A stretch of DNA of 26,347 bases from Usitatibacteraceae bacterium (GTDB lineage: Bacteria; Pseudomonadota; Gammaproteobacteria; Burkholderiales; Usitatibacteraceae), in the NCBI GenBank assembly GCA_046589675.1, contig JBKJVA010000319.1, positions 1 through 26,347 of the forward strand. The letters are read 5' to 3'. The position numbers and the translations under genes are program-made. Every line of letters starts with the position of its first letter. Position 1 is the first letter of the stretch. Of this stretch, positions 15,468 to 24,445 are shown piece after piece. The notes under the pieces are model-generated. The model was not told where the DNA came from, ran no database searches, and saw nothing but the letters and a program-made list of their open reading frames with translations.

Positions 15468-15645
15468 ATGTCGGCAAGTCAAATAGTGACACCAACATCC
15501 CCCAATCAGGTGCTTTTAACTGCACTTCATCGGCGTAAACTCCGCTCGATAATTCTGATTTCGCGTTTCGTCGCATCCAATTGGTAATTCGTCCTGGATA
15601 AGCGCACATTGCGCAAGTCGAATGGAACTTTCACTAAAGGCTGCC

Positions 15646-16884
15646 ATGTTATTCCAACGCTCCTCATCCTCCAGTCACCCCGGCGGCTCGTTGCGCCGTC
15701 AGGGCTGGGTAAAGCTTACCGTCGCGGGACTATCCGCTGCGCTCATCATTGGCTCGCTGGTCGCGTGGCGAGTCAGTTCTGCCGTAAAAGACGAGAAAAA
15801 ACCTGTGGCAAATAAGGTATTTGAACTTTCTGCCAGCGACGTTGCGATACTGGCCCCGCAAAATCTTGGCCTGGTGATACCTGTTTCCGGCTCGGTGCGC
15901 CCGGTATTGCAGGCGATGGTGAAATCGAAAGTATCAGGGGAAGTCTCGAAAATGCACGTGCGCGAGGGGGAACAGGTGGCCGCAGGTCAGATTCTGGCAT
16001 CAATCGATGCGGCTGATTTAAGGGCCCGCCACGATACCCAACTGGCCATGGTTGCGGAGAGCCGTGCAAAACTCGATCTTGCGCGTAAGAATGAGCAAAA
16101 CAACCGCGCATTGTTGGCCAAGAACTTCATCTCGCAGACGGCGTTTGATAACGTCGCCAGCGGCCTCGAAGTGTCCGAGTCAAATCTCAAATTCACCACT
16201 GCACAAGCTGCCATTAGCCAAAGAGCCCTCGCGGATGCCCAGATTCGCGCACCGTTTGCAGGCATCGTTGCCAAGCGCGTGGTGAATATCGGCGAGAAGG
16301 TCAGCGCGGATGCACCGGTCATGCATATTGTCGACCTGTCGCGCATGGAGCTCGAAGCGCCAGTACCGGTATCCGACATTCCGAGTGTGAAAGTGGGACA
16401 GGAAATCGTGTTCAAGGTCGATGGATTCAGCGAGCGTGAGTTTAAGGGCAATGTCGAGCGCGTTAATCCTGCAACCGAAGCGGGCTCGCGGTCGATCTCA
16501 ATATTTGTCGCGATAGCGAACAAGGATGGCGCGCTCAAAGGAGGCATGTTCGCCAATGGCACCTTAGCTGCTGCCAGCCGTTCGACAGTCAACGCCATTC
16601 CGATTGCCGCCCTGATCTCCGAAGGTGGCCAGTCGTTCGTCTATACACTGAAAGACGGCAAAGTTGAAAGAAAACCTGTCACAGCCGGAAGTCGCAGCGT
16701 GGAATTGGGGCTCATTGAAGTACGCGATGGCCTGCCCCTTGGCGCACAAGTCATTACCGTGAAAGCCGATGGCCTGAAGCACGGCGCGAGTGTCGTGGTC
16801 AGGGCACCATCAACAGCGCCTGCGGTGAAGCCTGCGGCCAACCCGAGGACATCGTCCGACGGAACGTCAGTTGCCAAGTACTAG
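15646..16884 (+). CDS. RND efflux periplasmic adaptor (membrane fusion protein)
   Basis: N-terminal hydrophobic anchor, lipoyl halves VKSKVSGEVSKMHVREGEQV and IRAPFAGIVAKRVVNIGEKV flanking a coiled hairpin. Start at ATG 15646 (AAGG RBS) or 15622. Confidence 0.93.
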   Translation: MLFQRSSSSSHPGGSLRRQGWVKLTVAGLSAALIIGSLVAWRVSSAVKDEKKPVANKVFELSASDVAILAPQNLGLVIPVSGSVRPVLQAMVKSKVSGEVSKMHVREGEQVAAGQILASIDAADLRARHDTQLAMVAESRAKLDLARKNEQNNRALLAKNFISQTAFDNVASGLEVSESNLKFTTAQAAISQRALADAQIRAPFAGIVAKRVVNIGEKVSADAPVMHIVDLSRMELEAPVPVSDIPSVKVGQEIVFKVDGFSEREFKGNVERVNPATEAGSRSISIFVAIANKDGALKGGMFANGTLAAASRSTVNAIPIAALISEGGQSFVYTLKDGKVERKPVTAGSRSVELGLIEVRDGLPLGAQVITVKADGLKHGASVVVRAPSTAPAVKPAANPRTSSDGTSVAKY

Positions 16885-16956
16885 TACCGTTTCAGCGGCC
16901 CCCGCCGCGTCGGCTTCCATCCCAGCAAAAACCCGGCACTATCGCGAGGAGCGGTC

Positions 16957-19900
16957 ATGAGAATTACCCAGATCAGCGTCAACAATCCGGTCTTTGCCAC
17001 CATGATGATGGTGGGCATCGTCGTCATGGGCCTGTTCGCCTATCAGCGGCTGTCTGTCGACCAGATGCCAGACATCACCTTCCCGTTCGTCCAAGTGCAA
17101 ACCTCCTACCCGGGCGCGTCTTCGGAAGCGGTGATGCAGGATGTCACCCGGCCCATCGAGGAGGCGATCAATACCATCAGCGGGATCAAGAGTATTCGTT
17201 CATTCTCCCGCGAGGGGTTCTCACGCGTGATGGTCGAATTCGAACTTAAGATCGACGTGAAGACGGCCGTACAAGACGTGCGCGACAAAGTCGCTGGTGT
17301 ACGGCGCGGCTTTAATAAAGATGTGGGCGAACCTACCGTCACCCGTGCTGACAACGACAACGATCGGCCCATCATGTACTTGTCGATGAAAAGCCCCGCC
17401 CGTTCGCTACGAGAACTTTCTGACCTCGCCGATCAATTAGTCGTGAAACGTCTGCAAGGCTCCTACGGTGTCGGCACCATTGAAGTCTCCGGGTCCGTGC
17501 AACGCGAGATGGCGATCCGTCTTAATACCGACAAAATGGCAGCATACGGCGTGAGCGTCGACCAAGTCGTGGGTGCGATCCGCAGTCAGAACCAGAATCA
17601 GGCTGCTGGTTTCCTGGTCGGCGACCGCTCTGAGCGCCTGGTACGGGTGCAGGGGAAATTCAAGGATGCGAGCGATTTTGAGCGCGTCATCGTTGCCCGA
17701 CTCGGCAGCGCGGGAAACAATGCACCAGTAACGTTGGGCATGGTCGCCAGCGTGCGCGATACCGAACGTGAAGAGACCACACTATCAACCACAAACGGCA
17801 CGCGCGGCATTTCGATCGAAATTCGCAAAACCCGTGGCGCAAATACGCTGGAAGCTGCCGAATCGATTCGAAATAATATCGCCAACCTCAAGAAGACCCT
17901 GCCTCCCGATTTGGCTTTGGACATTACATTTGATCAGTCTAAATTTATCAAGCAAGGCGTCGACAACGTCAAAAATACCATTCTCGAAGGCGCAGGCCTG
18001 ACCGTACTGATTGTATTTCTATTCCTGCAGTCGTGGCGCTCCACCGTCATCACCGGCCTCACCATTCCCATTTCGGTGTTGGCGACATTCATCGCTTTAT
18101 ACGCTTTTGGCTTCTCAATAAATTTCCTCACGCTGATGGCGTTATCGCTGTCGATCGGAATCCTCATCGACGACGCGATTGTCGTCCGCGAAAACATCGT
18201 CCGTCACCTGGCAATGGGCAAGAGCCACTTTCAGGCTTCACTCGAGGCCACACAGGAAATCGGCCTCGCCGTGATGGCAACGACTTTCACCATCGTCGCG
18301 GTGTTCTTGCCGGTGGCATTCATGGGCGGCATCATCGGCTTATTCTTCTTTCAATTCGGTATAGCGGTCACGGTTGCGGTACTGGTCTCGCTGTTTGTTT
18401 CCTTTACCCTCGACCCGATGCTTTCTGCGGTTTGGCATGACGGGCCGTCATTCATCAATCGCGTGAAGCCTATCAAGTGGACCCTCGACAAGCAGGCGGC
18501 AATGATGGATTGGCTGCACGCAAAGTACGACAAGGTATTGCGCTGGACCTTCCGGCCGGAATATCGCCGCACGTGGATTCCCAAACCAAAGCCGATTGAA
18601 CTCGCGCTGTTCGTGGCTGGGTACGTGAGGCTCACAAAGCGTGTGCAGCCGAAATGGGAATTCTTCACGATTCGCAATCGAGGCATCGTGTTGTGGGTCG
18701 CCGCTTTCACATTTTTCGCCAGCTTCGCGCTAATACCGTTCCTCGGTTCTGAATTCATCCCGGAAGCCGATGAGAACTGGGCCAATGCCAGTATTCAAAC
18801 ACCGATCGGATCGTCGCTGAACTACACCATCGGCAAAGCGGAGCAGGTCGAAGCGGCGCTGCGTGAGTTTTCAGAGATTAAGCGCGTGTCGCGCAATGTA
18901 TGGAAAAACGGCGCCTGGTTTGGTCTGGAATTGACCGACAAAGAAGACCGCGCCCGCTCTAAAAAGCAACTTGATGACGCGATCCGCAAACGGCTATCGA
19001 CCATTGCAGGTCTCGAAGTGCGGGTGGGCTGGAATCGCCCTATTCAGATATTTGTGATGGGGCCGGAGATTCGTGAGCTCGATCGTATTTCCCAGGAGGT
19101 CGTCTCCAAGCTTAAAGCTATCAAAGGCACGGTCGATGTCGAGAGTTCTTACAAGCCAACCAGCCCGACGCTCGACATCACCATCAATCGTGAACTCGCA
19201 AGCGACCTGGGCGTCTCGATGTCTTCGGTCGTGTCCACCACCCGCGCCATGATCGCAGGTGAGGATGCCGGTCAATGGGAGGGCCCGGACGGCGAAAACC
19301 ATCAAGTGCTGGTGCGTCTGCCAAAAAACGAGCGTACCGGCGTTGCCGACCTCGACAAGATTTATCTCCCCAGTTCCCGCACCAATGCCGACGGCAGCCC
19401 GCGCATGGTGCCGCTGCGCCAGATTGCTGACTTCAAACCTGCCTTCGCCGAACGCCAGATCGAGCGACGCAATCTTCAGCGACTGGTGCAGGTATGGTCG
19501 GGTGTCGCGTCAACGCACACGGCAGGCGCGGTGTCTGGCGACGTGCAAAAGGCACTCAAGGAAATCGCCTTACCCCCGGGATATCAATTCCAGTTTGGCG
19601 GCTCATCTCAGGAAATGGCCGATTCGCTCGGCTATGCGATCGCCGCACTGAGCCTTGCGGTAATCTTTATTTATCTCATCCTTGCTTCTCAGTTTGGCAG
19701 CTTCCTGCAACCAATCGCCATCATGGCCTCCCTTCCGCTTTCGTTGATCGGGGTACTTCTGTCACTGCTACTTTTCAAATCGACACTCAACCTGTTTTCG
19801 GTCATCGGCTTCATCATGTTGATGGGCCTCGTAACCAAGAACGCCATCCTGCTGGTGGACTTCACAAACCACGGACGCCGCGAAGGCATGGAGCGTGACG

Positions 19901-20208
19901 ACGCGATCTTCGCGGCGGGTCAAGTGCGGCTGCGCCCAATCCTGATGACCACGACAGCGATGATTGGCGGCATGCTGCCTTTGGCTCTGGCGTTCGGTGC
20001 CGGTTCCGAGCAACAGTCGCCAATGGCGCATGCCGTCATCGGTGGCATCATCACCTCGACCGTCATGACCCTCGTGGTTGTTCCGGTGCTCTACACTTAC
20101 TTCGACACCTGGGGTGCAAAAGCGACAACCTGGTTTGCACGCAAACCGGTCATATCGATTGGTGGCGGTTCAGTTGAACCGGTACTGGCGGACAAGAAAC
20201 GCGACTGA
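16957..20208 (+). CDS. RND efflux transporter permease subunit (AcrB/MdtB-like)
   Basis: VDQMPDITFP, TSYPGASSEAV, TM4 GILIDDAIVVRENI and TM10 GLVTKNAILLVDF (proton-relay D, D, K intact), RLRPILMTT; GAGGAG RBS. Confidence 0.97.
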   Translation: MRITQISVNNPVFATMMMVGIVVMGLFAYQRLSVDQMPDITFPFVQVQTSYPGASSEAVMQDVTRPIEEAINTISGIKSIRSFSREGFSRVMVEFELKIDVKTAVQDVRDKVAGVRRGFNKDVGEPTVTRADNDNDRPIMYLSMKSPARSLRELSDLADQLVVKRLQGSYGVGTIEVSGSVQREMAIRLNTDKMAAYGVSVDQVVGAIRSQNQNQAAGFLVGDRSERLVRVQGKFKDASDFERVIVARLGSAGNNAPVTLGMVASVRDTEREETTLSTTNGTRGISIEIRKTRGANTLEAAESIRNNIANLKKTLPPDLALDITFDQSKFIKQGVDNVKNTILEGAGLTVLIVFLFLQSWRSTVITGLTIPISVLATFIALYAFGFSINFLTLMALSLSIGILIDDAIVVRENIVRHLAMGKSHFQASLEATQEIGLAVMATTFTIVAVFLPVAFMGGIIGLFFFQFGIAVTVAVLVSLFVSFTLDPMLSAVWHDGPSFINRVKPIKWTLDKQAAMMDWLHAKYDKVLRWTFRPEYRRTWIPKPKPIELALFVAGYVRLTKRVQPKWEFFTIRNRGIVLWVAAFTFFASFALIPFLGSEFIPEADENWANASIQTPIGSSLNYTIGKAEQVEAALREFSEIKRVSRNVWKNGAWFGLELTDKEDRARSKKQLDDAIRKRLSTIAGLEVRVGWNRPIQIFVMGPEIRELDRISQEVVSKLKAIKGTVDVESSYKPTSPTLDITINRELASDLGVSMSSVVSTTRAMIAGEDAGQWEGPDGENHQVLVRLPKNERTGVADLDKIYLPSSRTNADGSPRMVPLRQIADFKPAFAERQIERRNLQRLVQVWSGVASTHTAGAVSGDVQKALKEIALPPGYQFQFGGSSQEMADSLGYAIAALSLAVIFIYLILASQFGSFLQPIAIMASLPLSLIGVLLSLLLFKSTLNLFSVIGFIMLMGLVTKNAILLVDFTNHGRREGMERDDAIFAAGQVRLRPILMTTTAMIGGMLPLALAFGAGSEQQSPMAHAVIGGIITSTVMTLVVVPVLYTYFDTWGAKATTWFARKPVISIGGGSVEPVLADKKRD

Positions 20209-20352: not shown

Positions 20353-21540
20353 TTAACGCCGATTCATCATCAGCATGCCAAGCGTTGTATTTGTAGGGAA
20401 CGCAACGACGCGATTGCGACCGGCCCTCTTCGCACTGTAAAGCGCTTCATCGGCACGGCTGACGAGCGTCTCCACGCCTTCGCTACCTTCTGACGAGAGT
20501 GTTGCCACGCCGACACTGACGGTCACACGAAGTGTGCGTTCATTGAACATGAAATGCGCTTGTTCGATCGCGTCCCGCGTGCGCTCGGCCATAATCATGG
20601 CGCGGTCGATGGCTGTATTTGGCAGCAGAATGCAGAATTCCTCACCACCATAACGCGCCAGCATGTCTTCTTTCCGCAGCGCCATCATCACTACCGAGAC
20701 GACTCGCTTCAAAACTTCGTCCCCTGCAAGGTGTCCATTGCGATCATTGATCTGCTTGAAGTGATCGACATCTAACATCATCAGCGAAAGTGAGCCTATC
20801 GCGCGCCGGGTTCTGGCGATTTCCTTTTCGGCCAGCTCTAGAAATGTCCGGCGATTGAACGCCCCCGTAAGCGGATCGGTGAATGCCAACCTTTGGGCGT
20901 CTTCCTCACTTCGTTCCTTGTGCAGTAACAGAAAGCCCACCGAGGTGACGAGAATGACTGCAAACCAAAATACATAAGTGATCCCTTGCAACGGGCTTGA
21001 GATCATGAATCCTGGAATGGCGCCAGGCTCCGCGATGCCAACCACGGCCCGTGCGAACATGGTTGCGGCACCGATCAGATAGCCGGTCAGCAAGAGCCGG
21101 CGGGCCGAGCCGCGATCTCCGTGATTCTGCCGTTGTACCAGGACTGCCAGCGCCAGCATCCCGGCACCAAAGATGATGCCAGCCATGATGACGTGTATCG
21201 GAAATTTATCGATAAACAAGGCGAAAAGCGCAGCAACCACCAGCGCGGGAAACACATGCCACCAACGGTTCAATCGTTTGCCGTGAAACTCATGGATCGC
21301 TGCCGCCTGCATGGTCATGCAGATGATAAATAAGGTATTCGGAAAAATGATGGAGGCAAAATCCGGCCAAATACCCCGTGCGGCGTAAAGTCCGAACACG
21401 ATGGCTTGCAACAGCATGGCCCCGGTCCATTTGCCCAAGCCGTCGCGAAAACGCGGGCCGACCGCCACCATTAGCGACACCGCCAGCAAGAGCGAAGTCG
21501 CGATTATCATCACCATCTGTGTGCGCAGGTCGAGTATCAA
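20353..21540 (-). CDS. Membrane-bound diguanylate cyclase (about 7 TM helices plus GGDEF domain)
   Basis: Seven hydrophobic segments in residues ~9-208, then TDPLTGAFNRR, LDVDHFKQIND..GHLAGDEVL, I-site RKED and RYGGEEF. TTG start with AGG 6 nt upstream; start uncertain. Confidence 0.94.
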   Translation of the reverse strand: MILDLRTQMVMIIATSLLLAVSLMVAVGPRFRDGLGKWTGAMLLQAIVFGLYAARGIWPDFASIIFPNTLFIICMTMQAAAIHEFHGKRLNRWWHVFPALVVAALFALFIDKFPIHVIMAGIIFGAGMLALAVLVQRQNHGDRGSARRLLLTGYLIGAATMFARAVVGIAEPGAIPGFMISSPLQGITYVFWFAVILVTSVGFLLLHKERSEEDAQRLAFTDPLTGAFNRRTFLELAEKEIARTRRAIGSLSLMMLDVDHFKQINDRNGHLAGDEVLKRVVSVVMMALRKEDMLARYGGEEFCILLPNTAIDRAMIMAERTRDAIEQAHFMFNERTLRVTVSVGVATLSSEGSEGVETLVSRADEALYSAKRAGRNRVVAFPTNTTLGMLMMNRR

Positions 21541-21600
21541 AGTGTGCCTATGCGTTTATGCATCGAGCATTCGCGCATTGATATTGTTGTTTGAAATGAC

Positions 21601-21606
21601 AATATA
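21601..21606 (-). promoter_or_regulatory. Candidate -10 element (TATATT) for the diguanylate cyclase
   Basis: 5/6 match to TATAAT, 30.5 nt from the centre of the CRP-type box. Confidence 0.5.
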
Positions 21607-21608
21607 CT
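21603..21608 (+). promoter_or_regulatory. Candidate -10 element (TATACT) firing rightwards
   Basis: TATACT with TTGATA 19 nt upstream (long spacer); overlaps the opposite-strand -10. Confidence 0.4.
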
Positions 21609-21628
21609 GGATTGCTCTGGTGGGTCTT

Positions 21629-21644
21629 TGTGAACCAGTTCACA
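21629..21644. promoter_or_regulatory. CRP-family binding site
   Basis: TGTGA-ACCAGT-TCACA, a 10/10 match to the TGTGA-N6-TCACA core, in an intergenic region. Confidence 0.75.
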
Positions 21645-21780
21645 GTGTTCTGAGCGGACCGATGAACGGCAAGAAATCATGGCTGTGTGGTAGCTCGCTT
21701 CTCGTGGCACTTTCTGCAGTGCGCTATGGTCTGCGTGTTAATTTGGCGTTTGAGCAGGCGTATTGGTCAAAAAGGCCCGA

Positions 21781-21810
21781 AAACCTACCTGCACAGGTGG
21801 GTTTTTTGTT
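21781..21810 (+). terminator. Intrinsic terminator with no annotated gene directly upstream on this strand
   Basis: AAACCTACCT-GCAC-AGGTGGGTTT then TTTGTTTT. One G-U pair on +, which becomes a C-A mismatch on -, so it is directional. Confidence 0.75.
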
Positions 21811-21860
21811 TTCCGCATAGGGTAAATTGCCTTCACAGATAATTCTTGCATAGGTAGTGA

Positions 21861-22796
21861 ATGGCTTCCGCCGCCGCGCTTCGGACCGAGATCAACGTCA
21901 ACCTCGACGCCTGTTTGGCCGCAATCCGTTCCAACGAGCTTCAGACCGGCGTAGTGGGCGCTGTCGACTACATGGCAGCGCTGCACCAAGAAGTGGATGA
22001 ACACACCTGGGACGAGGTCGTGCGGCCCGGCGTACTCGCACATGAGTTGCATCAATTGATGCTTGCGGATCCGTATACAGGGCGCGCGTTTCACAAGCCG
22101 CGTGGCTATGCAGGCGATGCCGAGATCATGGATTATCTTTACTATCGCAATCCGCCCGCGAACACGTCGCCGTTGGGGCAACAATTGTTTGCGATCACGA
22201 CATCGCTGCCAAATTCACTCAGCATCGCAGACCGCCGCCATCGCGTTGCGCAACTCATCGATCACGCGGCGGACACCAGGCACCAGCCGGTTCGCGTGTT
22301 AGCCGTGGCGAGCGGTCATCTTCGGGAAGCCGAGCTCTCTACCGCAATGCGCCGGGGTGCCGTTCGTGAGATTGTGGCACTGGATCAGGATCTGCGCAGT
22401 CTGGAAGTCGTGCAAAGAGACTATGCGCGCCTTCCCATCAAGTGCGCACCGCAGTCGATCCAGCGATTGCTGACACCGCGCCCTGATTTGGGGAAATTCG
22501 ATGTGATTTATTCAGCCGGGATGTTCAACTATCTCCCAGATCCACTTGCCTGGCGGCTTACGTCATTTTTGTTCGATTTGCTTAGCCCCGGTGGCACCTT
22601 GATGGCTGCCAATTTCGTGCCTGGTAACGAGAACCGCGCGTACATGGAGTCCTTCATGGATTGGCGCGTCATCATGCGGGACGAAACACAAATGATGCAG
22701 CTTGTGAGCGAATTGCCATCCGCGCAGATCGCGGAACGCTCAATTTCTACCGACTTAGGGAAGAATATCGCCTATTTGGAGATCATGAAAGCTTGA
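21861..22796 (+). CDS. Class I SAM-dependent methyltransferase, PhcB-like (3-hydroxy fatty acid methyl ester synthase family)
   Basis: DPYTGRAFHKPRGYAGDAEIMDY, motif I VLAVASGH, ALDQD, FDVIYSAGMFNYL, LLSPGGTLMAANF, RAYMESFMDWRVIMR. The methyltransferase call is firm; the PhcB-family call is from recalled motifs. Confidence 0.85.
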   Translation: MASAAALRTEINVNLDACLAAIRSNELQTGVVGAVDYMAALHQEVDEHTWDEVVRPGVLAHELHQLMLADPYTGRAFHKPRGYAGDAEIMDYLYYRNPPANTSPLGQQLFAITTSLPNSLSIADRRHRVAQLIDHAADTRHQPVRVLAVASGHLREAELSTAMRRGAVREIVALDQDLRSLEVVQRDYARLPIKCAPQSIQRLLTPRPDLGKFDVIYSAGMFNYLPDPLAWRLTSFLFDLLSPGGTLMAANFVPGNENRAYMESFMDWRVIMRDETQMMQLVSELPSAQIAERSISTDLGKNIAYLEIMKA

Positions 22797-22837: not shown

Positions 22838-24445
22838 TTAATACCCAACCGCTCCGCCATCCTTGCGATGATCGCTCCCGGCCACATAGCCGCCGTCACC
22901 CAGCCGCCAAATGAGTTGTGCGCCGCCAAAGGCAAAATTAACCGCTTCCGCGGACGCAAGCCTGTGGCCCATGCCTTCAAGCGCCGCGCCAATGCAGGCC
23001 TTCATGGCATCTTCCAATCCGACGGTGCCGTCTGGATTCACAATCCAGCGCGGTGCGTCGGATGCGGTCTGCGGGTTCTGGCCGTAGTCGCACATGCGCG
23101 TCACCATCTGCACATGTCCTTGCGCCTGCATGTGGCCACCCATCACGCCGAAGCTCATCAGTGGTTTGTTGGCAAGGTCGGTGAGAAAACCCGGGATAAT
23201 CGTCTGAAACGGACGTTTGCCTGGTGCCACTTGATTGGGATGCCCGTCTTCCAGCACAAATCCGTGGCCGCGATTTTGCAGTGATATCCCGGTGCCCGGC
23301 ACCACCACACCTGAGCCAAAGCCCATGTAGTTCGATTGGATCAGGCTCACCATCATGCCGCTGGCATCCGCCGTGGTGAGATAGACCGTACCGCCGTGCT
23401 GCGGTATGCCGTGGGTGTGCACACTGGCGCGTTTACAGTTGATTAGTGCCGCGCGGGACTTCAAATAGCCTTTATCAAGCAAAGCGGCAATCGGCATGTC
23501 CATAAAACGCACATCGGCGAGGTAGCGGCTTGCATCCGCAAAGGCAAGTTTCATCGCTTCAATTTGCAGATGTACGCTGGTCAATGAATCCACCTTATGA
23601 GAAGACAGATCAAAATTTTCCAGTATCCCCAAACCGAGCAGGGCGGCCAGGCCCTGGCCATTGGGCGGAATCTCATGCAGCCGCACCTGACGGTAATCCA
23701 GATGGATGGTGCCGACCCAGTCGCAGACGTGCGTTGCGAGATCATCTCGAGAAAGCGATCCACCCAACTGCGCCGCGTGCCTGGCCATTTTCTCCGCCAG
23801 CGCACCGTGGTAAAAGCTCTTGCCGCGCGTCTCCGCGATCTCCTCAAGCGTCTCTGCCTGACCGTTCAAGATCCATTTCTCACCCGCGTGGGGTGCTCGG
23901 CCTGCTGGCGTGAAATCACGAATGAAATCGGCTTGATCTTTCAACATCTCGGCCTGGCGCGCCCAACTCACAGCAGTAATCGGCGAAACAAGATGGCCTT
24001 CGCGCGCGTAACGAATCGCAGGCCCGAACAAGCTTTCGAATGGCAGCTTGCCAAACTTTTCCGATAGCGCCACCCATTGCGAAACCGCACCCGGGATCGT
24101 GATCGAATCGATGCCGCGCACCGGCATTGACGTTGCACCGGGATACTTGCGCGCAAAATGTTCCGGCGTCCAATCGGCAGGCGAGCGACCTGATGCATTG
24201 AGGCCGTGCAATTGCTGACCATCCCAAAGAATCGCAAAGCCATCGGAGCCTATGCCGTTGCTGGTCGGTTCAACGACGGTGAGCGTGATCGCGGCGGCGA
24301 TGGCGGCGTCAACCGCGTTGCCGCCCTGTTGCAGCATGCTGAGTCCCGCCTGTGCGGCAAGCGGCTGTGACGTGGCCACTATATTTTTTGCCATCACCGG
24401 CATGCGTTGGGAAGAATAGGGGAAATCGTATGAAAAGTTTTTCAT
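22838..24445 (-). CDS. ggt: Gamma-glutamyltransferase-family Ntn hydrolase, cytoplasmic YwrD/HpxW-like type
   Basis: VATSQPLAAQAG, GGNAVDAAIAAA..L.VVEPTSNGIGSD, LNASGRSP, autocleavage site GG|TVYL, SNYMGFGSG, LQNRG, GVMGGHMQAQGH; no signal peptide. Confidence 0.93.
   Translation of the reverse strand: MKNFSYDFPYSSQRMPVMAKNIVATSQPLAAQAGLSMLQQGGNAVDAAIAAAITLTVVEPTSNGIGSDGFAILWDGQQLHGLNASGRSPADWTPEHFARKYPGATSMPVRGIDSITIPGAVSQWVALSEKFGKLPFESLFGPAIRYAREGHLVSPITAVSWARQAEMLKDQADFIRDFTPAGRAPHAGEKWILNGQAETLEEIAETRGKSFYHGALAEKMARHAAQLGGSLSRDDLATHVCDWVGTIHLDYRQVRLHEIPPNGQGLAALLGLGILENFDLSSHKVDSLTSVHLQIEAMKLAFADASRYLADVRFMDMPIAALLDKGYLKSRAALINCKRASVHTHGIPQHGGTVYLTTADASGMMVSLIQSNYMGFGSGVVVPGTGISLQNRGHGFVLEDGHPNQVAPGKRPFQTIIPGFLTDLANKPLMSFGVMGGHMQAQGHVQMVTRMCDYGQNPQTASDAPRWIVNPDGTVGLEDAMKACIGAALEGMGHRLASAEAVNFAFGGAQLIWRLGDGGYVAGSDHRKDGGAVGY

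What the first reader, a model, noticed from the sequence alone, without database searches (positions are those of the whole stretch)
20353..22796. Candidate signal-synthase/receptor module: PhcB-like methyltransferase head-to-head with a 7-TM diguanylate cyclase
Seen: a SAM methyltransferase with KPRGYAGD (nt 22095-22118), FDVIYSAG and MESFMDW motifs lies divergent from an intact GGEEF cyclase with a seven-helix membrane domain and an RxxD I-site; no histidine kinase or response regulator is present. Established: Ralstonia PhcB methylates 3-hydroxy fatty acids to give the 3-OH PAME/MAME quorum signals, read by the PhcS/PhcR two-component system. Inference: this may be a two-gene circuit in which a diffusible methyl ester is sensed in the membrane and converted directly into c-di-GMP. 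Product and ligand are unproven, and the adjacency could be chance.
Basis: partly seen in the sequence, partly recalled or inferred. Interest (0 to 1): 0.8.

Follow-up and report, generated by a model that had tools for sequence, protein, structure and literature searches.

The report
PhcB-like methyltransferase beside membrane cyclase
A short relative of the Ralstonia quorum-signal enzyme PhcB sits head to head with an intact seven-helix c-di-GMP cyclase, but the two genes occur apart in most relatives, so a dedicated two-gene signal circuit is possible rather than likely here, although the enzyme family as a whole is often found next to c-di-GMP enzymes.

Summary
A 311-aa methyltransferase (21861-22796, +) with KPRGYAGD, FDVIYSAG and MESFMDW lies head to head with a 395-aa cyclase (20353-21540, -). 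The cyclase has seven helices, GGEEF and an RKED I-site. The window holds no kinase or receiver.

The enzyme is a true but distant PhcB homologue: 27% identity, profile E 2e-30. It matches only PhcB's C-terminal ~265 residues. It lacks PhcB's N-terminal domain, its GxGxG motif and the phcS/R/Q operon. It belongs to a large uncharacterised family (>=1,649 50%-identity clusters, many phyla).

Locally the pairing is not conserved:
- Eight congeners have RND-cyclase-GGT with no methyltransferase; only 2 of 63 genus genomes carry it.
- Three methyltransferase-bearing relatives have independently deleted the cyclase.
- A sister genus has a methyltransferase in the same slot with no cyclase.
- The seven-helix domain shows no detectable similarity to the PhcS sensor.

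Family-wide, GGDEF, EAL or HD-GYP proteins lie within three genes at 33 of 75 loci. FadL channels and acyl-activating enzymes also recur. Rhizobiaceae carry a co-diverging methyltransferase plus membrane GGDEF-EAL cassette.

Verdict: partly supported. A lipid methyl-ester product is plausible. Direct coupling to this cyclase is unproven (about 0.3).

The parts
21861..22796 (+). Short-form PhcB-family class I SAM-methyltransferase-like protein (311 aa, P0002)
   Evidence: Intact ORF. Weak Methyltransf_11/25 matches. 27% identity, E 3e-17, to a 464-aa protein encoded in a phcBSRQ-type operon. Profile-profile probability 99.8%, E 2e-30, covering PhcB residues 196-459. AlphaFold model pLDDT 92: helical N-terminal part plus Rossmann core.
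22095..22118 (+). KPRGYAGD motif (residues 79-86)
   Evidence: Invariant in 30 family members. Aligns with KPLGYAGD of PhcB-type proteins.
22296..22328 (+). VLAVASGHLRE (residues 146-156), the family's atypical equivalent of SAM motif I
   Evidence: A150, G152, H153, L154, R155 and E156 are invariant in the family. PhcB-type proteins have a canonical VLNVGCGPA here. The motif follows strand 144-149 of the model.
22497..22520 (+). FDVIYSAG motif (residues 213-220)
   Evidence: Y217 and G220 are invariant. Aligns with FDAVYCAG of PhcB-type proteins.
22644..22664 (+). MESFMDW motif (residues 262-268)
   Evidence: M266 and W268 are invariant. Aligns with MEHLLEW of PhcB-type proteins.
20353..21540 (-). 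Membrane-bound diguanylate cyclase (395 aa, P0001)
   Evidence: GGDEF domain at 155.7 bits, full length; TIGR00254 at 180 bits. Orthologues at 67-76% identity sit in the same RND-cyclase-GGT position in congeners.
20896..21540 (-). Seven-helix membrane domain (residues 1-215), unnamed family
   Evidence: Hydropathy. AlphaFold helices. No Pfam family. Atlas neighbours are unnamed membrane proteins. No profile similarity to the PhcS N-terminus or the Rhizobium GGDEF-EAL N-terminus.
20635..20676 (-). RKED I-site (residues 289-292) and GGEEF active site (residues 298-302)
   Evidence: Read from the translation. R289, D292 and G298-F302 are invariant in 29 homologues.
21629..21644 (.). TGTGA-N6-TCACA palindrome in the cyclase's upstream region
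   Evidence: Exact match. The surrounding ~190 bp are conserved upstream of the cyclase both in loci with and in loci without the methyltransferase, so this is the cyclase's own, older regulatory region.
21779..21806 (+). 12-bp-stem hairpin with a T run, 55 nt upstream of the methyltransferase start
   Evidence: Terminator-like scan. Conserved in methyltransferase-bearing loci, including those where the cyclase is deleted, and absent from loci without the methyltransferase. No Rfam family above threshold.
15622..20208 (+). RND efflux pair (adaptor 15622-16884, permease 16957-20208), convergent with the cyclase
   Evidence: Pfam and NCBIfam. Syntenic in all relatives. In a sister genus the order is adaptor-permease-methyltransferase on one strand.
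22838..24445 (-). Gamma-glutamyltranspeptidase, convergent with the methyltransferase
   Evidence: Pfam 483 bits. The convergent methyltransferase/GGT arrangement recurs in 13 genomes of a sister genus.

Best explanation
These are two intact genes that are each credible on their own. They are neighbours through locus history rather than as an obligate synthase-receptor module.

The cyclase is a genus-wide, syntenic gene with its own conserved upstream region carrying a CRP-type box. It most likely makes c-di-GMP in response to an unknown cue read by its seven-helix membrane domain, and is feedback-inhibited through its RxxD site. This step is inferred.

The methyltransferase is a short-form member of the PhcB superfamily. 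It most likely transfers a methyl group from SAM to the carboxyl group of an acyl (fatty-acid-like, possibly carrier-bound) substrate. That would give a hydrophobic ester able to cross or leave the envelope. This is inferred from homology to PhcB and from the family's neighbours: FadL channels, MMPL/RND transporters, fatty-acid desaturases, acyl-AMP ligases and an acyl-ligase-carrier-methyltransferase fusion.

The cyclase functions without the methyltransferase in most congeners. The methyltransferase persists where the cyclase has been deleted. Any coupling between them in this genome is therefore facultative at best.
For: **Homology to PhcB**
- BLASTP 27% identity, E 3e-17. hhalign 99.8%, E 2e-30.
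- The comparison proteins lie in MT-HK-(REC-HK)-REC operons. This holds for 11 of 11 PhcB-type hits.

**Lipid context of the family**
- FadL/TodX next to the gene in 19 of 75 loci; also a fatty-acid desaturase, MMPL and LuxR-type regulators.
- FadL near versus far: 5/106 against 0/165, p = 0.009.
- AMP-binding enzyme adjacent in L163.
- Fusion protein AMP-binding + PP-binding + this methyltransferase.
- Structural neighbours include BioC and the C-terminal domain of YnbC.

**Locus history**
- Eight congeners have RND-cyclase-GGT with a spacer of about 200 bp and no methyltransferase.
- The methyltransferase is in 2 of 63 genus genomes; the cyclase family is in 32 of 63.
- The cyclase is reduced to fragments or gone in L004/G066, L005 and L006, while the methyltransferase is intact there.
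- These three lineages are interspersed with pair-intact ones on the methyltransferase tree, so there were at least 3 independent losses.
- Sister genus g26 has a methyltransferase in the same slot next to the same GGT with no cyclase.
- The cyclase's upstream 190 bp are conserved with or without the methyltransferase.
Against: - The family-wide enrichment of c-di-GMP enzymes next to this methyltransferase makes a chance adjacency to a cyclase here less comfortable. They occur at 33 of 75 loci. Near versus far is 14/163 against 1/222 at 70% dereplication, p = 4e-5, and p = 0.016 at 60%.
- The head-to-head pair is kept intact in at least four diverged lineages: the window, L164, L165 and L166, with cyclase identity of 74-76%.
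- The family's motif I is atypical (AxGHLRE), so even SAM binding is not shown.
- No member of the short family has been characterised (no literature hits).
Confidence: 0.5

Rival explanations
1. The methyltransferase makes a diffusible lipid methyl ester. The neighbouring seven-helix cyclase senses it in the membrane and converts it directly into c-di-GMP. This would be a two-gene analogue of RpfF/RpfR.
For: - Family-wide association of the methyltransferase with GGDEF, EAL or HD-GYP proteins of several unrelated architectures.
- In Rhizobiaceae, a methyltransferase plus multi-TM GGDEF-EAL cassette whose two partners co-diverge in different genomic contexts: 97/92, 59/60, 50/53, 52/50 and 47/45 % identity.
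- Head-to-head pair intact in four diverged lineages of this clade.
- The cyclase has an uncharacterised membrane domain with no known ligand.
Against: - The cyclase orthologue keeps its place and its promoter region in 8 congeners that lack the methyltransferase.
- Three independent cyclase deletions occurred with the methyltransferase retained.
- Thirteen sister-genus genomes have the methyltransferase in this slot and no cyclase.
- The seven-helix domain is unrelated, at profile level, to the PhcS sensor (probability 0.1%) and to the Rhizobium membrane domain (0.3%).
Confidence: 0.3
2. The methyltransferase is not a signal synthase. It is a housekeeping or detoxifying enzyme that modifies a lipid or other small molecule, functionally tied to the RND pump or to GGT rather than to the cyclase.
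For: - Conserved position between the RND permease and GGT in two genera. In G110 it is co-directional with the pump, 178 bp downstream.
- Transporters (FadL, MMPL, MFS) are its commonest neighbours elsewhere.
- Deletion of the cyclase restores RND-methyltransferase adjacency in three relatives.
Against: - Signalling genes are enriched near the family: 12/106 against 5/165, p = 0.009.
- The only characterised relative, PhcB, is a signal synthase.
- The RND-cyclase-GGT synteny exists without the methyltransferase, so neither the pump nor GGT needs it.
Confidence: 0.15
3. The protein is a catalytically inactive methyltransferase-fold protein, a binding or regulatory protein. The conserved AxGHLRE loop that replaces GxGxG would reflect loss of SAM binding.
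For: - Motif I is non-canonical yet invariant across the family.
- Pfam methyltransferase scores are marginal.
Against: - The acidic residue at the end of strand 2 (D175) and the rest of the Rossmann core are conserved.
- The confident model superposes on SAM-bound methyltransferases.
- Strong purifying conservation of many residues around the predicted active site.
Confidence: 0.05

Closest known systems
[quoted passage not shown]
   Same: Homologous catalytic region of about 245 aligned residues, with shared KPxGYAGD, FDxxYxAGxFxYL and ME..W.LIYR motifs. The family tends to sit next to sensory proteins.
   Different: - 311 aa against about 464-511 aa: it lacks PhcB's N-terminal ~195 residues.
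- Motif I is AVASGHLRE, not GCGPA.
- No phcS/R/Q next to it or anywhere in the window. All 11 PhcB-type genes sampled have phcS immediately downstream.
- A long branch separates the two groups.
- The product is unknown.
RpfF/RpfR (BDSF) of Burkholderia cenocepacia and Cronobacter: a fatty-acid signal synthase next to a PAS-GGDEF-EAL receptor (PMC6361424, PMC4698668)
   Different: - The synthase there is a crotonase, not a methyltransferase.
- The receptor there is cytoplasmic, with a PAS fatty-acid pocket, and acts as a phosphodiesterase.
- That gene pair is reported as highly conserved, whereas the pair here is not.
RpfC/RpfG DSF system of Xanthomonas (hybrid kinase to REC-HD-GYP)
   Same: In Pirellulaceae the same methyltransferase family is clustered with a hybrid kinase, an Hpt protein, a REC-HD-GYP regulator and a FadL channel. 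That is an Rpf-like output architecture.
   Different: None of these partners is present in this window. The planctomycete kinase is a giant cytoplasmic Pkinase-AAA-TPR-HK-REC protein.
BioC (malonyl-ACP O-methyltransferase)
   Same: A class I methyltransferase that esterifies a free carboxyl group of a carrier-bound acyl chain. It is among the best structural matches, and NCBIfam gives a weak TIGR02072 match.
   Different: Sequence similarity is marginal (16.8 bits against a cut-off of 185). BioC lacks the KPRGYAGD helical N-terminal part.

Membership tests
PhcB (3-hydroxy fatty acid methyl ester synthase of Ralstonia) | Sequence homology to the PhcB catalytic region, including motifs outside the generic Rossmann core | tested here: met
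   27% identity over P0002 residues 63-284 = PhcB-type residues 203-441, E 3e-17. hhalign 99.8%, E 2e-30.
PhcB (3-hydroxy fatty acid methyl ester synthase of Ralstonia) | Full-length architecture of about 464-511 aa with the N-terminal ~195-residue region | tested here: not met
   P0002 is 311 aa. Only about 60 residues precede the aligned region and they do not align with PhcB. The length of Ralstonia PhcB, about 467 aa, was inferred from coordinates in PMC6989110.
PhcB (3-hydroxy fatty acid methyl ester synthase of Ralstonia) | Encoded in an operon with the sensor kinase phcS (and phcR, phcQ) | tested here: not met
   No HK or REC domain anywhere in the window. 11 of 11 PhcB-type genes in sampled Burkholderiales have phcS directly downstream.
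PhcB (3-hydroxy fatty acid methyl ester synthase of Ralstonia) | Falls inside the PhcB clade in a phylogeny | tested here: not met
   PhcB-type sequences form a 100/100 clade on a branch of length 2.5, apart from all 53 short-family rows.
PhcB (3-hydroxy fatty acid methyl ester synthase of Ralstonia) | Produces 3-OH MAME or 3-OH PAME | not testable with these tools
   Needs expression and GC-MS.
Short KPRGYAGD methyltransferase family (unnamed; labelled 'EF 3-hydroxypalmitic acid methyl ester biosynthesis protein' by JGI) | About 300-350 aa with invariant F-KPRGYAGDA, AxGHLRE, AxDxD, YxxG..DYL, NF and M.W...R | tested here: met
   All invariant columns are present in P0002. Profile hit E 2e-126. 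The family has 1,649 50%-identity clusters at E <= 1e-30.
Active, product-inhibited GGDEF diguanylate cyclase | Complete GGDEF domain with a GG(D/E)EF active site | tested here: met
   PF00990 at 155.7 bits, positions 1-161 of 161. GGEEF at residues 298-302, invariant in homologues.
Active, product-inhibited GGDEF diguanylate cyclase | RxxD I-site five residues upstream of GGDEF | tested here: met
   R289-K-E-D292. R289 and D292 are invariant.
Active, product-inhibited GGDEF diguanylate cyclase | Cyclase activity and c-di-GMP inhibition | not testable with these tools
   Needs an enzyme assay.
Dedicated lipid-signal synthase / c-di-GMP receptor gene pair (RpfF/RpfR-like logic) | The two genes co-occur across genomes that carry either one | tested here: not met
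   - Cyclase without methyltransferase in 8 congeners at the same locus.
- Methyltransferase in 2 of 63 genus genomes, cyclase family in 32 of 63.
- Methyltransferase without cyclase in L004, L005, L006 and in 13 sister-genus genomes.
Dedicated lipid-signal synthase / c-di-GMP receptor gene pair (RpfF/RpfR-like logic) | The receptor's sensor domain is related to a known sensor of the signal class (PhcS N-terminus) | tested here: not met
   hhalign probability 0.1% for the 7-TM profile against the PhcS N-terminal profile.
Dedicated lipid-signal synthase / c-di-GMP receptor gene pair (RpfF/RpfR-like logic) | The synthase family is non-randomly associated with c-di-GMP enzymes elsewhere | tested here: met
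   33 of 75 loci. Near versus far p = 0.016 to 1.5e-5, depending on dereplication. Co-diverging cassette in Rhizobiaceae.

The most novel reading that the evidence does not exclude
The short KPRGYAGD methyltransferases are a large, unrecognised family of lipid methyl-ester autoinducer synthases. Their signals are read by whichever sensor is encoded beside them, and are typically fed into c-di-GMP turnover. The sensors would be the seven-helix GGDEF cyclase in this lineage, a multi-TM GGDEF-EAL protein in Rhizobiaceae, and a hybrid kinase to REC-HD-GYP relay with a FadL channel in Pirellulaceae. On this reading the pair in this window is a young, still unstable instance of such a module.
Probability: 0.25. 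Interest if true: 0.8.

Novelty: new variant of a known kind. Interest (0 to 1): 0.5.

Why it matters
Phc-type signalling by fatty-acid methyl esters is known only from Ralstonia and close relatives, where it controls virulence. This window belongs to a much larger sister family of shorter enzymes. That family has at least 1,649 clusters at 50% identity, spread over Planctomycetota, Acidobacteriota, Rhizobiaceae, Bacillaceae and cyanobacteria. No member has been studied.

Its gene neighbourhoods point to a hydrophobic acyl-derived product and, repeatedly, to c-di-GMP enzymes. If that holds, methyl-ester signalling would be widespread and wired to biofilm and motility decisions.

For the specific locus the main lesson is a caution. 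A suggestive head-to-head pair turns out to be evolutionarily separable.

The Rhizobium johnstonii 3841 pRL12 pair (RL_RS35605 / RL_RS35610) is a genetically tractable place to test the idea.

Tried and rejected
- **Known family for the seven-helix domain.** Pfam at E up to 10 gave only noise. The Atlas gave unnamed membrane clusters, with 7TMR-DISM only at rank 72 and score 0.75. AlphaFold DB clusters gave unnamed multi-TM GGDEF proteins.
- **Seven-helix domain against other sensor domains.** hhalign against the PhcS sensor gave 0.1%. Against the Rhizobium/Methylobacterium GGDEF-EAL membrane domain it gave 0.2-0.3%. Pairwise BLASTP gave nothing significant.
- **Lead: is the alphaproteobacterial membrane domain PhcS-like?** hhalign gives 9.6% with collinear motifs. 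HMMER searches of whole genomes and records in both directions found nothing at E <= 10. Left as a weak lead.
- **PDB by sequence for the methyltransferase.** Only marginal hits.
- **Weak methyltransferase hits in relatives (L002, L003).** These proved to be generic 436-458-aa methyltransferases, not PhcB.
- **Literature on PhcB-like homologues outside Ralstonia.** None found.
- **Are the genus-g1 and genus-g26 methyltransferases one clade?** The AU test gave p = 0.042 for a group named after seeing the tree. This is too borderline to decide between an ancestral gene with many losses and two acquisitions in one slot. I therefore withdrew my first reading, that the methyltransferase was simply inserted into a cyclase-GGT junction, as unproven in direction.
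- **Rfam on the spacer.** Nothing above gathering score.
- **Not attempted.** Complex prediction was not used, because no physical binding is claimed.
Full report
**1. The observation**

The window is a whole 26,347-bp contig of a 67%-complete, 2.06-Mb metagenome-assembled genome of the order Burkholderiales. The nearest named record is a 'Burkholderiales bacterium' MAG.

- **Methyltransferase (21861-22796, +, 311 aa).** It carries KPRGYAGD at nt 22095-22118, FDVIYSAG and MESFMDW. Pfam sees only marginal class I methyltransferase matches.
- **Cyclase (20353-21540, -, 395 aa).** It has a complete GGDEF domain (155.7 bits), GGEEF, and an RKED I-site five residues upstream. Hydropathy and an AlphaFold model (pLDDT 84) both give seven membrane helices.
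- **Rest of the window.** No kinase, receiver, EAL, HD-GYP or FadL domain occurs in any ORF. The other genes are an RND pump, GGT, a HAD hydrolase, TctA, PutA, CarA, DapB and similar.

**2. Is the enzyme PhcB-like?**

I had no named PhcB sequence, so I located true phc operons by synteny. A profile of 30 homologues (A2) was searched in 400 Burkholderiales genomes. It found 11 longer proteins (464-511 aa), each followed directly by a PhcS-like kinase.

In G288 the order is an AraC regulator, a 464-aa methyltransferase, a 448-aa kinase, a 365-aa REC-kinase and a 337-aa REC protein. That matches phcBSRQ. The chromosome coordinates in PMC6989110 imply that Ralstonia PhcB is about 467 aa.

Against this protein the window's enzyme is 27% identical over residues 63-284, E 3e-17. 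KPRGYAGD aligns with KPLGYAGD, FDVIYSAGMFNYL with FDAVYCAGLFDYL, and MESFMDW with MEHLLEW. Profile against profile gives 99.8% probability and E 2e-30, covering PhcB residues 196-459.

So the homology is real and extends beyond the Rossmann core. It is not orthology, for four reasons:

- The N-terminal ~195 residues of PhcB are missing.
- Motif I reads AVASGHLRE (AxGHLRE is invariant in the family) instead of GCGPA.
- There is no phcS/R/Q.
- In a maximum-likelihood tree the PhcB group sits on a branch of length 2.5, apart from all short forms.

The short family is large. It has 1,649 representatives of 50%-identity clusters at E <= 1e-30. It matches in at least 575 species genomes of Planctomycetota, Acidobacteriota, Rhizobium, Bacillaceae, cyanobacteria, Myxococcota and others. 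JGI labels many members 'EF 3-hydroxypalmitic acid methyl ester biosynthesis protein'. I found no paper on such homologues.

The model of the enzyme is confident (pLDDT 92): a helical N-terminal part on a Rossmann core. The best solved match is an uncharacterised Bordetella protein (3ocj). The best Swiss-Prot matches are the C-terminal domain of E. coli YnbC and BioC.

**3. Is the pair conserved locally?**

It is not.

*Cyclase without methyltransferase.*
- The membrane domain of the cyclase finds relatives in 32 of 63 genomes of the genus, with 60-70% identical orthologues in eight.
- In those eight the order is RND adaptor, RND permease, cyclase (opposite strand), GGT, HAD, TctA. Only about 200 bp separate the cyclase start from the GGT stop, and there is no methyltransferase.
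- The methyltransferase is found in only 2 of 63 genus genomes.

*Methyltransferase without cyclase.* Among methyltransferase-bearing relatives (75-90% identical enzymes) the cyclase has decayed three times:
- In G066/L004 only residues 110-142 and 349-384 survive, fused in a 93-aa ORF.
- In L005 only residues 3-63 survive.
- In L006 nothing is left.

The methyltransferase is intact in all three.

*Pair intact.* Three other metagenomic contigs (L164, L165, L166) keep both genes head to head, with cyclase identity of 74-76% and methyltransferase identity of 68-79%.

*Independent losses.* On the methyltransferase tree the three cyclase-less lineages are interspersed with pair-intact ones, and the remnants differ. 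The losses were therefore independent.

*The cyclase has its own promoter region.* The ~190 bp upstream of the cyclase include a perfect TGTGA-N6-TCACA box at 21629-21644. This region is conserved in loci with and without the methyltransferase, so the cyclase has its own older regulatory region. The rest of the spacer, with a strong hairpin plus T run at 21779-21806, travels with the methyltransferase.

**4. A complication about direction**

In the same bacterial family, genus g26 carries a family member in 14 of 46 genomes. In 13 of these it is convergent with the orthologous GGT. In the complete genome G110 the order is adaptor, permease, methyltransferase, GGT, with no cyclase.

That enzyme is only 30% identical to the window's. 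It does not group with the window's enzyme in the tree. The window's clade is sister to other betaproteobacterial and myxococcal sequences. The AU test of a joint clade gives p = 0.042, which is borderline and post hoc.

I therefore cannot say whether the gene is ancestral to the slot and often lost, or entered it twice. Either way, the enzyme keeps its place next to the pump and GGT more faithfully than next to the cyclase.

**5. The sensor comparison**

- A profile of the seven-helix domain (about 45 homologues) shows no similarity to a profile of 11 PhcS N-termini (probability 0.1%).
- It shows none to the membrane domain of the Rhizobium-type GGDEF-EAL proteins either (0.2-0.3%).
- Pfam, the Atlas and AlphaFold DB clusters give no named family.

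**6. What the wider family says**

I called genes in 75 of the 80 loci returned by the genome scan.

*Lipid- and transport-related neighbours.*
- A FadL/TodX outer-membrane channel is adjacent in 19 loci.
- Fatty-acid desaturase, MMPL transporter and LuxR-type regulators recur.
- An AMP-binding enzyme is adjacent in L163.
- One family member is fused as AMP-binding + PP-binding + methyltransferase.

These point to an acyl substrate, possibly carrier-bound, and to a hydrophobic product.

*c-di-GMP enzymes.* GGDEF, EAL or HD-GYP proteins lie within three genes at 33 of 75 loci. Only one lies further out. The table compares genes within two positions of the methyltransferase with genes four or more positions away, after dereplication of the loci by methyltransferase identity.

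| Dereplication level | Near (within 2 genes) | Far (4 or more genes) | p |
|---|---|---|---|
| 60% | 6/106 | 1/165 | 0.016 |
| 70% | 14/163 | 1/222 | 4e-5 |
| 80% | 16/191 | 1/242 | 1.5e-5 |

Related genomes are not fully independent, so these p-values are rough.

*The architectures differ between lineages.*
- REC-HD-GYP together with a giant Pkinase-AAA-TPR-HK-REC kinase, an Hpt protein and FadL in Pirellulaceae.
- REC-GGDEF-REC-GAF-HD, REC-GGDEF-EAL and PAS-GGDEF-EAL in single lineages.
- A multi-TM GGDEF-EAL protein in Alphaproteobacteria.

*The alphaproteobacterial pair behaves as a cassette.* Partner identities to the Rhizobium pair track each other (GGDEF-EAL / methyltransferase): 97/92, 59/60, 50/53, 52/50 and 47/45 %. 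This holds across pRL12 of R. johnstonii 3841, Ensifer, a paralogous copy in R. etli Mim1, Neorhizobium and Methylobacterium. The flanking genes differ, and in Methylobacterium the orientation is convergent. The cassette is absent from Aureimonas and Pantoea.

**7. Weighing**

*For a functional link here:*
- The family-level enrichment makes adjacency to a cyclase unlikely to be pure chance.
- Four diverged lineages keep the pair.

*Against:*
- The cyclase is older than the pairing, or at least independent of it. It has its own promoter and is maintained without the enzyme.
- The enzyme is maintained without the cyclase in three close relatives and thirteen more distant ones.
- The sensor domain has no detectable link to any domain paired with this enzyme family elsewhere.

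I put the dedicated circuit at about 0.3. I put 'separable neighbours, with a lipid-type methyl-ester enzyme' at about 0.5. Non-signalling or inactive readings take the remainder.

**8. Comparison with known systems**

The enzyme works most like PhcB but fails four of five testable membership criteria for PhcB proper. The proposed logic, a lipid signal converted directly into c-di-GMP by the neighbouring gene's product, already has a precedent in RpfF/RpfR of Burkholderia (PMC6361424, PMC4698668). A confirmed circuit would therefore be a new variant, not a new kind.

What seems new is the size, spread and c-di-GMP/FadL association of the short PhcB-like family.

**9. Earlier notes of this scan**

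Two earlier notes on this window, the CRP-type box and the orphan terminator, match what I saw independently in the alignments. I add that the box region is conserved with or without the methyltransferase, and that the hairpin travels with the methyltransferase.

Noticed in passing
window 21629-21644: A perfect TGTGA-N6-TCACA (CRP/FNR-type) box upstream of the cyclase. The surrounding ~190 bp are conserved in relatives with and without the methyltransferase, so it belongs to the cyclase's own promoter.
   Followed up: partly
window 21779-21806: A 12-bp-stem hairpin with a T run, 55 nt upstream of the methyltransferase ATG. It is conserved in methyltransferase-bearing loci even where the cyclase is deleted, and absent from loci without the methyltransferase. 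No Rfam family scores above threshold.
   Followed up: partly
L004 4967-5248; L005 3021-3203; L006 342-460: Three different remnants (or none) of the cyclase gene in methyltransferase-bearing relatives. In L004, a 93-aa ORF fuses residues 110-142 to residues 349-384. These are independent deletions.
   Followed up: yes
L042 7621-8229 (genome G002): In one congener the same GGT-cyclase gap holds a 202-aa PEP-CTERM protein gene instead of the methyltransferase. This spacer seems to accept insertions.
   Followed up: partly
L161 3086-10100 (genome G110) and 13 loci of genus g26 (L127, L128, L171, L173-L179, L181, L182): A 30%-identical, non-sister member of the methyltransferase family occupies the same slot between the RND permease and the orthologous GGT in a sister genus, with no cyclase. 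The same slot is filled by two diverged lineages of one family.
   Followed up: partly
L183 2715-5930 (R. johnstonii 3841 pRL12, RL_RS35605 / RL_RS35610); L187 2628-5927; L186; L188; L119 7803-10969: A two-gene cassette of a short PhcB-like methyltransferase and a multi-TM GGDEF-EAL protein. The partners co-diverge (97/92 down to 47/45 % identity) in different genomic contexts across Rhizobiaceae and Methylobacterium.
   Followed up: partly
L075 1241-12044 and about 14 other Planctomycetota loci: A conserved cluster: giant Pkinase-AAA-TPR-HisKA-HATPase-REC kinase, the methyltransferase, a FadL channel, a REC-HD-GYP regulator and an Hpt protein. This is an Rpf-like relay next to a PhcB-like enzyme.
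   Followed up: partly
protein P0306 (1076 aa); L163 8380-10053: A natural fusion of AMP-binding + phosphopantetheine-binding + this methyltransferase domain. Elsewhere an AMP-binding enzyme is encoded next to a family member. Both hint at a carrier-bound acyl substrate.
   Followed up: no
alignments A5 and A6 (L183, L186-L188, L119 against L130-L140): The membrane domain of the alphaproteobacterial GGDEF-EAL partner and the PhcS sensor share collinear motifs: R.G.W/Y, D..P, WL, S.YY and Y.N..ER(Y/F)..F. hhalign gives only 9.6%, and HMMER genome searches in both directions found nothing.
   Followed up: partly
L162 7258-8778 (genome G239): Some sister-genus members are 506-532 aa, with a ~200-residue N-terminal extension. 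They are PhcB-like in length but have no adjacent kinase, and the neighbouring 662- and 797-aa proteins have no Pfam family.
   Followed up: no
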